Shown here piece by piece: positions 17,185 through 19,603 of a DNA stretch of 32,000 nucleotides. The DNA is from Candidatus Hermodarchaeota archaeon. GTDB taxonomy: Archaea > Asgardarchaeota > Heimdallarchaeia > Hodarchaeales > Hodarchaeaceae. The notes beneath the pieces were generated by a model, which was not told the DNA's origin, ran no database searches, and saw nothing but the letters and a program-made list of their open reading frames with translations. Made by a program: the position numbers and the translations under genes. Within the stretch, counting starts at the first letter, position 1. Each line of letters begins with the position of its first letter. Location of the stretch: contig JBHLKY010000003.1 in assembly GCA_048886185.1 (NCBI GenBank), positions 120,595 through 152,594 on the forward strand, given 5' to 3'.

Positions 17185-17298
17185 TAGCCCCGCTCAGATT
17201 CGAACTGAGGTCACGAGGACTTTTCATAAATCTCATATCTTAATAATATTAGAATTTATACCAAAACCTCGCATGATGGTCCGCTACACTACGGGGCT
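17185..17298 (-). tRNA. tRNA-Gln(TTG) with 41-nt intron at 37/38 (17220-17260); CCA not encoded
   Basis: Acceptor AGCCCCG/CGGGGCT (A1-U72, archaeal Gln feature), anticodon stem CGAGG/CCTCG, T arm CTCAG-TTCGAAT-CTGAG, clean BHB. Confidence 0.93.
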
Positions 17299-17534
17299 GA
17301 AACGCTCTGAATAGCACACATGACATTGATAGCTAACACAGGGCAGACGATCTCACAAGCTCGACATTCGAAGCATAATTCAGGATTTACAACTTTAATG
17401 AATTTTTTGGATCCACTTGAGTCAGGTTGTTCTTGAATTAGAATCTCTGCTGGACAACTTTTGATACATTTTAAACATCGAATACAAAGGCTTTGATTGA
17501 CTATAATCTTCCGATCTATAGTATTCCACCTCAT
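17289..17534 (-). CDS. 2[4Fe-4S] ferredoxin
   Basis: CIRCLKCIKSCP and CFECRACEIVCP. Confidence 0.92.
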   Translation of the reverse strand: MRWNTIDRKIIVNQSLCIRCLKCIKSCPAEILIQEQPDSSGSKKFIKVVNPELCFECRACEIVCPVLAINVMCAIQSVSAP

Positions 17535-19603
17535 TTTGTAAGTAAAGCGCGTAATTCAATCAAAACCTTATCAACTTCATTATTTGTTTTACGGAGCTGT
17601 TTGTCATAGTTTATTTTTAGTTTAGCGTATGCTTCCTTCCCGATTCTTCCTTTAGTTTTCTTCTGTTCGAGTGATTCTATATTTTGTAAAATATCCTCAC
17701 GATTAGCTTCGGCAACTTCAATAGATCTCATCGATATTCTATATCGTGTTCCTTCTTCAGCTAGTTTTTGTGATATGGATACAATTGAACGATCTATTCC
17801 TTGTTGCCGATTTCTTAATATAATTCTGGTCTGTTCGTACTCTCGTGCACTTATGTTTCTTGATTTCCTCTTTTTATCCAATCTCAGTATTTGTTCTCTA
17901 ATTGCAGTTTTTTCTTCATAAGCCTTAACAAATTCTTTGATTAAATCTAGGGGGATTTCTTCAAAAGTAATTCGTTTAGGTTTAAAACCAAATGAAAAAT
18001 TTCGAATCAATGCATAAGTTATTCCTAAGGCTAAGAACAGAATGAAAATAGATAATGGGGTTTGAACGAAGAAGATGAAATTTATACCAAATTCAATATT
18101 GATGTATCGATTACTTAGAGGGGTTAGTTGTTCAAAAACAAGTTTTAAACCTGTTTTGTCGAAGATTCCGAGTAATTCGTTTGTACGAATTGAGGAATTG
18201 TAGGTCGAATCTCTTAAAATTTTGCTTTCAATGTTATTTATAATACCTGTTAAATTGTATCTCGAACCAGATGGTAGTAATAAATTCAATTCGAATCTTT
18301 GAACTGTCCAATTAAAGCTCATGGATAATGGGATTTGTAATTTGATTTTACCCCCTCCTAGGTCTCTTATGATGTCTGGAAAATGCTCTCTATAAGATAA
18401 ATAAAGATTATATTTTGAATTTTGTTCTATCTCGACTCTAGGGGTGATTGCTACAATCTTTTTATTTATTACAGGGTCAGTAGACACTGTTGGTGTGAGA
18501 TTACCATAGTTATCACGTAATCCAATTTTTCTAGCAGTACTGGGTAATTGACAGGTGATTGTAGGAAATAGAGATCCTCCAAGAGATGTGGAAAGTGAGG
18601 ATCCTGATTTTATTCCACTATTTTGGAGCTCAAATTTGTGACTTGTAGTAACATATCCCCATTCTGACACTGTAACCACAGATTTTAATTCTGTGAACTC
18701 TATTTTTGTGTATGAACTTTGATAATATTCAAATGAGAGATAAGCGGAGAAATTTGAATGTGTATCTAAACTAGGAGTATAGGCAGGGATAAAATTTCGG
18801 TTTTCAAGTTCTGTAAGGTTATACATTCCATACTTTGTTTCATTCAGTAAAGATCTATCAATAGTTGCCAGATTGGTGATATTAGTAAAAGTTAAGCCAT
18901 AAGAGGAATTTCCTGAAAATTTTCCTTGATAATAATTTTCAGTTGGTTGAATAGAATCGTTATTCACTTTCACATTGATATCTTGGCCTACTTTCCATTC
19001 GAGTTCATAATATGTAATTGGAAGAGATATTAATGGCAGAAAACTGAGATTAAAGCGATAGGGATATGCTGTTTCTTCGAGTTCAGCTCCTTTATTGAAT
19101 GATACTGCATTAAGATGATCCATCTCGATAATTATTGTTATCTCTTCATTTTGTTCTACCAATGGAGTCTTGATTACTAATAAAATGGAATTATTTTTCT
19201 TAATTTGAGCTAAAACCATAGACTCTGAATCAGTCTTGTTTGGAGAATGAATTCTCCAATACTTTGTATCCATGAATTCATGAGATGGGATAGTATAATT
19301 AAACGCATTTATAGGTTCTGTTGCATAATTATATAGATGAATCTCTGTCCGAGAAGTAGTATAGCCATATTGGTTGGCTGTGATTACACGACTTACATTT
19401 ATCTGGTGGCTTGTGTTTGTAAACTCAGAAGGTTCAAAAAAATTTAGTGAAGTGAAATCGTCCTGTTCTGTGCCAATTTGGTAATAATTCTCTCTTGACA
19501 GAGAGACTCCATTGCCAATATTGGAATTAATTAGGATAAAGACAGTAGAAACTATTATGACGATAAGAAAAATGTGCAAATATGATCCTAGTTTCCTTTT
19601 CAT
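17531..19603 (-). CDS. Ribophorin I (Ost1/RPN1) homologue
   Basis: Signal peptide, two repeated luminal domains (ITANQYGY / VTVSEWGYV), one TM, long helical cytosolic tail. Confidence 0.85.
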   Translation of the reverse strand: MKRKLGSYLHIFLIVIIVSTVFILINSNIGNGVSLSRENYYQIGTEQDDFTSLNFFEPSEFTNTSHQINVSRVITANQYGYTTSRTEIHLYNYATEPINAFNYTIPSHEFMDTKYWRIHSPNKTDSESMVLAQIKKNNSILLVIKTPLVEQNEEITIIIEMDHLNAVSFNKGAELEETAYPYRFNLSFLPLISLPITYYELEWKVGQDINVKVNNDSIQPTENYYQGKFSGNSSYGLTFTNITNLATIDRSLLNETKYGMYNLTELENRNFIPAYTPSLDTHSNFSAYLSFEYYQSSYTKIEFTELKSVVTVSEWGYVTTSHKFELQNSGIKSGSSLSTSLGGSLFPTITCQLPSTARKIGLRDNYGNLTPTVSTDPVINKKIVAITPRVEIEQNSKYNLYLSYREHFPDIIRDLGGGKIKLQIPLSMSFNWTVQRFELNLLLPSGSRYNLTGIINNIESKILRDSTYNSSIRTNELLGIFDKTGLKLVFEQLTPLSNRYINIEFGINFIFFVQTPLSIFILFLALGITYALIRNFSFGFKPKRITFEEIPLDLIKEFVKAYEEKTAIREQILRLDKKRKSRNISAREYEQTRIILRNRQQGIDRSIVSISQKLAEEGTRYRISMRSIEVAEANREDILQNIESLEQKKTKGRIGKEAYAKLKINYDKQLRKTNNEVDKVLIELRALLTK

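What the first reader, a model, noticed from the sequence alone, without database searches (positions are those of the whole stretch)
17185..17534. Ferredoxin stop codon lies inside tRNA-Gln
Seen: the ORF ends TCA GCC CCG TAG, and tRNA nucleotides 1-10 are AGCCCCGTAG (17298-17289). Ribophorin I overlaps the ferredoxin start by 4 nt, so there is no intergenic promoter space. Inference: RNase P cleavage of the polycistron leaves a non-stop ferredoxin mRNA, making tRNA maturation and complete translation mutually exclusive (reminiscent of mitochondrial tRNA punctuation), unless the tRNA has a promoter within the CDS.
Basis: partly seen in the sequence, partly recalled or inferred. Interest (0 to 1): 0.6.

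Follow-up and report, generated by a model that had tools for sequence, protein, structure and literature searches.

The report
Ferredoxin gene ends inside tRNA-Gln gene
In an Asgard (Hodarchaeales) archaeon a small ferredoxin gene really does borrow its stop codon from the first bases of the next tRNA-Gln gene, and this has lasted across most of the genus, but it is a known, probably near-neutral kind of gene packing with no sign of a special regulatory device.

Summary
An 81-aa 2x[4Fe-4S] ferredoxin ORF (17534..17289, minus strand) ends TCA GCC CCG TAG. Those last 10 nt are nucleotides 1-10 of an intron-bearing tRNA-Gln(UUG) (17298..17185), and the TAG is tRNA U8-A9-G10.

It is not a sequencing error. 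Twelve of 20 congeneric Hodarchaeales genomes have the same in-frame overlap, despite saturated synonymous divergence (dS >= 1, dN/dS 0.08-0.28). It lies on all deep branches, so it is probably ancestral. Two further congeners keep only a decayed tRNA remnant.

The tRNA has no A/T-rich box within about 76 nt upstream, unlike free-standing tRNA genes. Its sister gene tRNA-Gln(CUG) sits 3-4 nt behind rpoN in 15 of 15 genomes. Co-transcription followed by RNase P separation is therefore the likeliest mechanism, but it is inferred; I had no transcript data.

"Mutually exclusive" is not shown:
- The C-terminal tail is variable.
- A second tRNA-Gln(UUG) gene exists.
- The linked tRNA was lost repeatedly.

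The kind is already described for bacteria (Hudson, Lau and Williams 2014: 250 such overlaps, proposed sources of non-stop mRNA) and for mitochondria. This scan has also noted similar overlaps on other DNA.

Verdict: a real, conserved new member of a known kind, of modest interest.

The parts
17531..19603 (-). 690-aa membrane protein, ribophorin I-like, first gene of the presumed transcription unit. Its TGA (17533..17531) overlaps the ferredoxin ATG.
   Evidence: ORF list. Pfam finds nothing. ESM Atlas features score 0.96, with 24 of 30 hits in clusters carrying PF04597; structure TM 0.55-0.62 to ribophorin I clusters. The C-terminus ...DKVLI(E/D)LR.LLTK is conserved in all 20 congeners.
17289..17534 (-). 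81-aa 2x[4Fe-4S] ferredoxin ORF including its TAG stop (17291..17289).
   Evidence: Pfam Fer4 family hits, E 3e-12 to 1e-9. Orthologues in 20 of 21 congeners. dN/dS 0.08-0.28.
17185..17298 (-). tRNA-Gln(UUG) gene: exon 1 17298..17261, 41-nt intron 17260..17220 at position 37/38, exon 2 17219..17185. A1-U72, discriminator A, no encoded CCA.
   Evidence: ARAGORN -i. The fold shows the acceptor and anticodon stems plus an intron hairpin, z = -3.7. The intronless orthologue in G010 scores 56.6 bits with Rfam RF00005.
17289..17298 (-). The 10-nt same-strand overlap. tRNA nt 1-10 (AGCCCCGTAG) supply the third base of the Ser codon, then Ala, Pro and the stop of the ferredoxin.
   Evidence: The same register occurs in 12 of 20 congeners.
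17150..17154 (-). T5 tract, the first oligo-T after the tRNA (31-35 nt past its 3' end); candidate archaeal terminator of the unit.
   Evidence: Sequence read. Its function is inferred.
17527..17532 (-). Shine-Dalgarno-like GAGGTG, partly made of the upstream gene's stop codon.
   Evidence: The motif is conserved in congeners. GAGGT and AGGTG are enriched 2.5-3 fold at -12/-11 before ATG starts genome-wide.
17517..17519 (-). Conserved Ile codon (ATA here; ATT or ATC in congeners), a possible true start of the ferredoxin.
   Evidence: Codon alignment. Five congeners have TAG or TGA at codon 3, and two lack the upstream ATG.
16809..17099 (+). Convergent Trm112-like gene that bounds the unit downstream.
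   Evidence: Pfam PF03966, E 3.1e-10.

Best explanation
The ribophorin I-like gene, the ferredoxin gene and tRNA-Gln(UUG) most likely form one transcription unit. It would start at a promoter upstream of 19603 and end at the T-tract after the tRNA.

The ferredoxin frame has no stop of its own. It runs into the tRNA and is caught by UAG at tRNA positions 8-10. That triplet cannot drift, because U8, A9 and G10 are held by selection on the tRNA. A second TAG at tRNA nt 13-15 would catch a second frame.

On each transcript, ribosomes that follow the polymerase can finish at the UAG. Once the whole tRNA is made and folds, RNase P cuts at -1/+1. This releases the pre-tRNA for intron splicing, 3' trimming and CCA addition. 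It leaves an mRNA ending ...GUU UC, without a stop. Ribosomes stalled there would be freed by the archaeal Pelota/ABCE1 route, since archaea have no tmRNA.

The overlap itself is best read as tolerated, near-neutral gene packing with no evidence of a regulatory role.

Shown: the overlap, its conservation, the lack of a proximal A/T box, the sister case behind rpoN, and the presence of RNase P RNA.

Inferred: co-transcription, cleavage and rescue.
For: - Overlap and tRNA.
- Conservation: 12 of 20 congeners share the same register, at dS >= 1 with dN/dS 0.08-0.28.
- History: the overlap lies on all deep branches of the tree built from the neighbouring protein. Remnants are nested inside overlap clades, so it is probably ancestral (midpoint-rooted tree).
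- G005 (L015) still uses the TAG of a decayed tRNA 5' half as its stop.
- No A/T-only run of 6 nt or more lies within 76 nt upstream of this tRNA, or within 80 nt of the rpoN-linked tRNA-Gln(CUG). Nearly all free-standing tRNA genes of G000 have one between -60 and -15. The other exceptions are tRNAs that directly follow another tRNA.
- Of 27 tRNAs tested in G000, only the two A73-type tRNA-Gln genes abut an upstream same-strand ORF.
- The rpoN stop is followed after 3-4 nt by tRNA-Gln(CUG) in 15 of 15 genomes.
- In the complete genome G010, further tRNAs sit 6-32 nt behind same-strand ORFs; one of these looks like ribosomal protein eS26 by my reading of its tail.
- Archaeal RNase P RNA is present, 148 bits against a cut-off of 84.
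- TAG is a stop here: no PylS.
- Tail length varies by whole codons and tail sequence is unconserved, as expected for a run-on.
Against: - No RNA data of any kind were available. The Logan contigs that end at the tRNA do so because of a 31-nt repeat shared with tRNA-Gln(CUG) and still carry the intron.
- An A/T-rich run lies about 87-110 nt upstream of the tRNA in all 11 intact-overlap loci. It could be an internal TATA box, although it encodes a conserved Ile-Lys-Val/Ile strand and such runs occur about once per 50 nt in this 33% G+C DNA.
- The tRNA survey covers only the 27 tRNAs that ARAGORN or Rfam could find. Multi-intron tRNAs were missed.
- Loss of the tRNA in 8 of 20 congeners, plus a second tRNA-Gln(UUG) gene, shows the linked copy is dispensable. 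It might therefore be weakly expressed.
Confidence: 0.65

Rival explanations
1. The tRNA is made mainly from its own promoter inside the ferredoxin coding sequence, for example the A/T-rich run about 100 nt upstream. Read-through from the operon promoter would be a minor source. The overlap then has almost no effect on tRNA supply, although operon mRNAs would still carry the tRNA at their 3' end.
For: An A/T run at about -87 to -110 is present in all 11 intact-overlap loci. Archaeal promoters need only a short TATA/BRE element, and the DNA is A/T-rich.
Against: The run encodes conserved residues (I-K-V/I) and is equally present in congeners that have no tRNA there. Such runs occur about every 50 nt in these CDSs. 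It would imply a 5' leader of roughly 70 nt or more, whereas the nearest A/T-rich box of free-standing tRNAs in this genome lies 15-60 nt upstream. The sister tRNA-Gln(CUG) also lacks any box within 80 nt and sits 4 nt behind rpoN.
Confidence: 0.2
2. The overlap is a selected regulatory coupling. tRNA-Gln maturation deliberately limits ferredoxin output, or ribosome occupancy of the acceptor stem limits tRNA release, tying the redox protein's expression to translational capacity.
For: The same reading register has persisted through synonymous saturation and across all deep branches of the genus.
Against: The UAG is fixed by the tRNA, so persistence needs no selection on the overlap. The overlap was resolved or lost at least 3-4 times without loss of the ferredoxin: TAA placed 2 nt before the tRNA in G006, and the tRNA decayed or gone in 7 others. 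The tail is variable. A redundant tRNA-Gln(UUG) gene exists. Comparable overlaps in bacteria are rare, lineage-restricted accidents (PMC4131195).
Confidence: 0.1
3. Artefact: the ORF is not a real gene or is mis-extended, or the tRNA is a pseudogene, so nothing functional overlaps.
For: Default tRNA and Rfam scans do not report the tRNA. In G019 the linked tRNA has two acceptor-stem mismatches (by my reading of the sequence), and in G005 and G017 it is a remnant.
Against: Fer4 domain with all eight Cys present and dN/dS 0.08-0.28. The tRNA is called with intron detection, folds correctly, and keeps a conserved tRNA-Gln sequence (acceptor, D, anticodon and T arms) while its intron position changes among species. 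The sequence is identical in independent assemblies.
Confidence: 0.03

Closest known systems
Same-orientation CDS-upstream overlaps with tRNA/tmRNA genes in bacteria, proposed as sources of non-stop mRNA (Hudson, Lau and Williams 2014, Front Microbiol 5:421, PMC4131195; e.g. FtsW/RodA with tRNA-Ile(CAT) in 44 Helicobacter genomes, smpB with ssrA in Carsonella)
   Same: A Pfam-positive CDS runs into a valid downstream tRNA on the same strand. Maturation of the RNA would remove the stop codon. The arrangement is rare and shared by one closely related group of genomes. The C-terminal extension is apparently random sequence set by the extent of intrusion (read).
   Different: That survey's overlap table covered 2031 bacterial genome projects only. 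Here the host is an Asgard archaeon without tmRNA, so rescue would go through Pelota/ABCE1. The tRNA carries a BHB-type intron whose position varies among species. The overlap has lasted across a whole genus at saturated dS.
Mitochondrial tRNA punctuation (polycistronic transcripts cut at tRNAs by RNase P and RNase Z)
   Same: There is no spacer or promoter room between the mRNA and the tRNA, and RNase P would create the mRNA 3' end. In this genus two tRNA-Gln genes sit at 4 nt (3 nt in one genome) and -10 nt from the preceding stop.
   Different: This is a large chromosome in which most tRNA genes stand alone with A/T-rich upstream boxes. The cut mRNA would end ...UC, so adenylation cannot rebuild a stop codon as it does for the mitochondrial T/TA ends (seen directly in the sequence). 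No evidence of genome-wide punctuation.
tRNA genes co-transcribed with protein genes in prokaryotic operons (e.g. E. coli secG-leuU, separated by RNase P, PMC2241853; the tufB tRNA operon; tRNAs inside archaeal ribosomal-protein/RNAP operons, from general knowledge)
   Same: A tRNA lies at the 3' end of an mRNA without its own proximal promoter, and RNase P is the separating nuclease.
   Different: In those cases the stop codon lies outside the tRNA, as it does for rpoN-tRNA-Gln(CUG) here. Only the ferredoxin case puts the stop inside the tRNA.

Membership tests
Archaeal tRNA-Gln(UUG) gene | Cloverleaf with anticodon UUG | tested here: met
   ARAGORN -i calls tRNA-Gln(ttg) at c[17185,17298]. 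The intronless orthologue in G010 scores 56.6 bits with RF00005, gathering score 29.
Archaeal tRNA-Gln(UUG) gene | A1-U72 first pair, typical of archaeal tRNA-Gln (recalled from the GatDE literature) | tested here: met
   5' AGCCCCG pairs with CGGGGCT 3', followed by discriminator A. The role as an identity element is from memory and was not tested.
Archaeal tRNA-Gln(UUG) gene | Intron flanked by a bulge-helix-bulge splice motif | tested here: inconclusive
   The fold gives the anticodon stem, a UUUU/AAAA central helix and an AUAAAU/AUUUAU outer helix, with the splice sites in short bulges. This is a relaxed rather than strict 3-4-3 motif. I did not run a BHB classifier.
2x[4Fe-4S] bacterial-type ferredoxin (Pfam Fer4, PF00037 / PF13237) | Two CxxCxxCxxxCP cluster-binding motifs and a Pfam hit above the cut-off | tested here: met
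   Motifs CIRCLKCIKSCP and CFECRACEIVCP. PF00037 46.1 bits against 21.1; PF13237 40 bits against 25.5. All eight Cys are conserved in 20 congeners.
CDS/tRNA same-strand overlap yielding candidate non-stop mRNA (Hudson et al. 2014 criteria) | Pfam-positive CDS upstream, valid tRNA, same orientation, stop codon inside the tRNA | tested here: met
   Criteria read in PMC4131195.
CDS/tRNA same-strand overlap yielding candidate non-stop mRNA (Hudson et al. 2014 criteria) | Co-transcription and RNase P cleavage actually produce a non-stop mRNA | not testable with these tools
   Indirect only: no proximal A/T box, RNase P RNA present, sister tRNA 4 nt behind rpoN.
Mitochondrial-type tRNA punctuation | Incomplete stop codon completed by polyadenylation after tRNA excision | tested here: not met
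   After a cut at -1/+1 the mRNA ends ...GTT TC. Adding A gives UCA AAA..., which is not a stop.
Mitochondrial-type tRNA punctuation | tRNAs generally flank mRNAs without promoters, genome-wide | tested here: not met
   Only 2 of 27 tRNAs tested in G000 abut an upstream ORF. Most have A/T-rich upstream boxes.
Pyrrolysine (TAG) recoding | PylS present | tested here: not met
   Best TIGR02367 match is 26.4 bits against a cut-off of 178. By eye, the sequences of ARAGORN's three 'tRNA-Pyl' calls look like mis-registered intron-bearing tRNAs: one is tRNA-Gln(CUG), one looks like a tRNA-Lys; the third I did not resolve.
Ribophorin I (PF04597), for the upstream 690-aa gene | Match to the Pfam model | tested here: not met
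   No PF04597 hit even at E <= 10. Only language-model and predicted-structure similarity support it (score 0.96; TM 0.55-0.62), so 'ribophorin I-like' is a lead and membership is unshown.

The most novel reading that the evidence does not exclude
In Hodarchaeales, the archaeal order proposed as closest to eukaryotes (from memory; not checked here), the A73-type tRNA-Gln genes are produced only as 3' passengers of mRNAs (rps2-rpoN and ribophorin-like/ferredoxin). RNase P would then act as an mRNA 3'-end-forming enzyme. For the ferredoxin it would constitutively make a non-stop mRNA whose fate depends on Pelota/ABCE1 surveillance. That would be a chromosomal, selected form of tRNA punctuation coupling tRNA-Gln supply to expression of these operons.
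Probability: 0.1. Interest if true: 0.6.

Novelty: new member of a known kind. Interest (0 to 1): 0.33.

Why it matters
It is a clean, evolutionarily stable archaeal example of a protein gene that uses tRNA positions 8-10 as its stop codon. It includes "fossils" in which the tRNA has decayed but its TAG still ends the protein.

If transcript data confirm co-transcription, it offers a natural substrate for studying how an archaeon without tmRNA copes with RNase P-generated non-stop mRNAs. It would also show that some Asgard tRNAs are made as 3' passengers of mRNAs.

For annotation, intron-bearing tRNAs missed by default scans can hide such overlaps, and gene callers should not "repair" them.

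Tried and rejected
1. Default ARAGORN and the Rfam gathering scan found no tRNA in the window. The tRNA appears only with intron detection.
2. TAG recoding by pyrrolysine: rejected. There is no PylS, and ARAGORN's 'tRNA-Pyl' calls look like mis-registered intron-bearing tRNAs.
3. Sequencing or assembly error hiding a stop: rejected, because of conservation in 12 species and identical Logan assemblies.
4. I hoped the Logan contigs ending exactly at the tRNA 3' end were transcripts. Rejected: both ends coincide with a 31-nt repeat shared with tRNA-Gln(CUG), and the intron is retained.
5. A conserved internal promoter at synonymous sites: the codon alignment shows free synonymous variation in the last 80 nt. 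The only positionally recurrent A/T run (about -100) encodes conserved residues and also occurs where no tRNA follows. Unresolved, not supported.
6. The bacterial sigma-70/hairpin-terminator scan is uninformative for an archaeon.
7. The 16S rRNA 3' end, wanted to check the anti-SD: not found in G000, G010, G015 or G007 by pattern, nor in G010 by RF01959. I replaced it with a genome-wide motif enrichment.
8. Literature searches for archaeal tRNA punctuation or archaeal CDS/tRNA overlaps gave nothing specific. The 2026 preprint on Asgard tRNA introns does not mention overlaps, promoters or Gln.
9. One paper search failed on syntax.

Full report
**Observation.** On the minus strand, the ORF list gives an 81-aa ORF at 17534..17289 ending ...AIQSVSAP-TAG. 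Its ATG overlaps by 4 nt (ATGA) the TGA of a 690-aa ORF at 19603..17531. The sequence reads TCA GCC CCG TAG TGTAGCGG... ARAGORN with intron detection calls tRNA-Gln(ttg) at c[17185,17298] with a 41-nt intron at the canonical 37/38 site. The tRNA's first ten nucleotides, AGCCCCGTAG, are therefore the last ten of the ORF, and the stop codon is tRNA U8-A9-G10. Default ARAGORN and the Rfam gathering scan miss the gene because of the intron. The pre-tRNA folds with an acceptor stem, an anticodon stem and an intron hairpin (-37 kcal/mol, z = -3.7). The ORF is a 2x[4Fe-4S] ferredoxin (PF00037, E 3.4e-12, two CxxCxxCxxxCP motifs). The genome lacks PylS, so TAG is a stop.

**Organism and genome.** The window is G000:C3:120595-152594 of a 4.84-Mb, 96%-complete, roughly 33% G+C assembly. 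Record titles of the closest loci name Hodarchaeota/Heimdallarchaeota MAGs, including Candidatus Hodarchaeum mangrovi. This is a Hodarchaeales (Asgard) archaeon.

**Conservation.** Orthologues of the ferredoxin occur in 20 of 21 congeneric genomes, always directly behind the same 690-aa gene.
- In 12 of the 20 (G000 plus G008, G003, G007, G012, G014, G015, G021, G019, G010, G016, G001) the frame runs into tRNA-Gln(UUG) in the same register and stops at the tRNA's TAG. In G019 the tRNA has two acceptor-stem mismatches (by my reading of the sequence).
- In G006 a TAA lies 2 nt before the tRNA.
- G005 and G017 keep only a decayed 5' half of the tRNA. G005 still uses its TAG as the stop.
- Five genomes have no tRNA there.

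The ferredoxin is under purifying selection in all clades (dN/dS 0.08-0.28), while dS is about 1 or saturated. A sequencing error or a young accident is therefore excluded. On a tree of the neighbouring protein the overlap lies on all deep branches, and the remnants are nested inside overlap clades (midpoint-rooted). The overlap was probably ancestral to the genus and was lost at least 3-4 times.

The tail between the last conserved Cys and the tRNA varies from 3 to 10 codons and is unconserved. Only (S)AP, dictated by the acceptor stem, recurs.

Two of the three frames entering this tRNA meet a TAG within 15 nt (nt 8-10 and 13-15; seen directly in the sequence). The tRNA 5' end is thus a fixed stop trap.

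**How the tRNA is expressed.**
- Nearly all free-standing tRNA genes of G000 have an A/T-only run of 6 nt or more between -60 and -15. The exceptions are tRNAs that directly follow another tRNA, and the two A73-type tRNA-Gln genes. The ferredoxin-linked gene has none within 76 nt, and tRNA-Gln(CUG) on C14 has none within 80 nt.
- Of 27 tRNAs tested in G000, only these two abut an upstream same-strand ORF.
- The C14 gene follows the rps2-rpoN genes (the 219-aa and 67-aa ORFs; names are my reading of the sequences, I ran no family search), with TAA, then 4 nt, then the tRNA. The same 3-4-nt gap is found in 15 of 15 genomes examined.
- In the complete genome G010, further tRNAs sit 6-32 nt behind same-strand ORFs; one ORF looks like ribosomal protein eS26.
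- Archaeal RNase P RNA is present.
- The first oligo-T after the ferredoxin is a T5 tract 31-35 nt past the tRNA (17154..17150).

Together these make co-transcription with the upstream genes, followed by RNase P separation, the most economical reading. I put it at about 0.65. It remains an inference, because I could obtain no transcript evidence. Two Logan contigs that stop at the tRNA do so at a 31-nt repeat shared with tRNA-Gln(CUG), and they still contain the intron. An internal promoter cannot be excluded. An A/T run about 87-110 nt upstream recurs in all intact-overlap loci, but it encodes a conserved I-K-V/I strand, also occurs where no tRNA follows, and matches the background density of such runs.

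**Consequences.** Whatever the tRNA's promoter, a ferredoxin mRNA that contains its stop codon must contain the tRNA 5' end, and no terminator precedes the tRNA 3' end. If RNase P cuts, the mRNA ends ...GUU UC and lacks Ser-Ala-Pro-stop. A-tailing cannot rebuild a stop, so the mitochondrial analogy fails on that point. "Mutually exclusive" is too strong for four reasons:
- Lead ribosomes coupled to transcription can terminate at the UAG before the 3' acceptor strand exists.
- The tail is dispensable, judging by its variability.
- Archaeal Pelota/ABCE1 can recycle stalled ribosomes (general knowledge).
- tRNA-Gln(UUG) is redundant.

On the last point, G000 also carries an intronless, G73-type tandem pair tRNA-Gln(UUG)/tRNA-Gln(CUG) on C12. 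BLAST finds that pair in 12 of 21 congeners, including the complete G010 and three of the five that have no tRNA at the ferredoxin locus. Repeated loss of the linked tRNA fits a tolerated, near-neutral arrangement better than a regulatory device.

**Comparison with what is known.** Hudson, Lau and Williams (2014, PMC4131195; read) counted 250 same-orientation overlaps with the CDS upstream of a valid t(m)RNA gene in 2031 bacterial genome projects. They proposed these overlaps (379 same-orientation in all) as sources of high-frequency non-stop mRNA, noted that they represent few evolutionary events within closely related genomes, and described smpB running into ssrA in Carsonella with random C-terminal extensions. 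The present case meets all their sequence criteria. It differs in three ways: the host is an archaeon (no tmRNA), the tRNA carries an intron, and the overlap has genus-wide depth. Notes of this scan report similar overlaps in other genomes, some also using U8-A9-G10 as the stop; I did not verify those. My literature searches found no description for archaea, and the recent preprint on Asgard tRNA introns does not address it. I class this as a new member of a known kind.

**Side observations.**
1. The true start of the ferredoxin is doubtful. Five congeners have TAG or TGA at codon 3 after the ATG/GTG. Two others lack that ATG, and one of them (G006) has no canonical in-frame start before the first Cys. 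Yet these genes are under purifying selection. A conserved GAGGTG lies 12-13 nt before a conserved Ile codon (ATA at 17519..17517). That is within 1 nt of the spacing at which GAGGT and AGGTG are enriched 2.5-3 fold before ATG starts genome-wide. This suggests initiation at AUA/AUU/AUC, or reinitiation after the upstream stop.
2. The orthologous tRNA-Gln(UUG) genes carry their intron at 37/38, in the T-loop, at two sites, or not at all.
3. The upstream gene is ribophorin I-like only by language-model and predicted-structure similarity. Pfam is silent.

Noticed in passing
window 17517-17534 (-); L010, L012, L013, L014, L017, L018, L019: The annotated ATG of the ferredoxin is followed by an in-frame TAG (4 congeners) or TGA (1) at codon 3 and is absent in two more. 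One of those (G006) has no canonical in-frame start before the first Cys cluster, while G017 has a GTG. The genes are nevertheless under purifying selection (dN/dS 0.11-0.25 in the TAG clade). A conserved SD-like GAGGTG lies 12-13 nt before a conserved Ile codon (ATA/ATT/ATC). This suggests near-cognate initiation, or reinitiation after the upstream stop.
   Followed up: partly
G000:C14:26675-26781 (L034 1176-1282, -) and L089-L102: tRNA-Gln(CUG), with an intron, starts 4 nt after the TAA of rpoN (rps2-rpoN-tRNA). The same 3-4-nt gap occurs in 15 of 15 Hodarchaeales genomes. ARAGORN -i mis-registers this gene as 'tRNA-Pyl(cta)'.
   Followed up: yes
G000:C12:160175-160364 (L033 2176-2365, -): A second, intronless tandem pair tRNA-Gln(UUG)/tRNA-Gln(CUG) with discriminator G73 instead of A73. 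BLAST finds it in 12 of 21 congeners. The genus therefore keeps two distinct tRNA-Gln sets; the reason is unknown.
   Followed up: partly
L004-L009, L016, L018, L020, L022 (orthologous tRNA-Gln(UUG) genes): The intron position of one orthologous tRNA gene differs among congeners: 37/38 (G000, G014, G021, G019), T-loop (G008, G003, G007, G012, G015), none (G010, G006), and two introns including one in the D-arm region (G016, G001). This indicates rapid intron gain, loss or sliding.
   Followed up: no
L015 (G005) and L012 (G017), just after the ferredoxin ORF: Decayed remnants of the tRNA-Gln 5' half. In G005 the relic TAG still terminates the ferredoxin. In G017 a 1-nt deletion shifts the frame to a TAA inside the relic.
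   Followed up: partly
window 17531-19603 (-): The 690-aa membrane protein, rich in N-glycosylation sequons, is ribophorin I-like by ESM Atlas features and predicted structure, but has no Pfam PF04597 hit even at E <= 10. It is always followed by the ferredoxin in this genus, an unexplained pairing of an OST-like subunit with an Fe-S protein.
   Followed up: partly
G010 loci L038, L045, L048, L053: In the complete congener genome several other tRNAs lie 6-32 nt behind same-strand ORFs (one ORF looks like ribosomal protein eS26, 25 nt before a tRNA). mRNA-tRNA co-transcription may therefore be fairly common in this genus.
   Followed up: no
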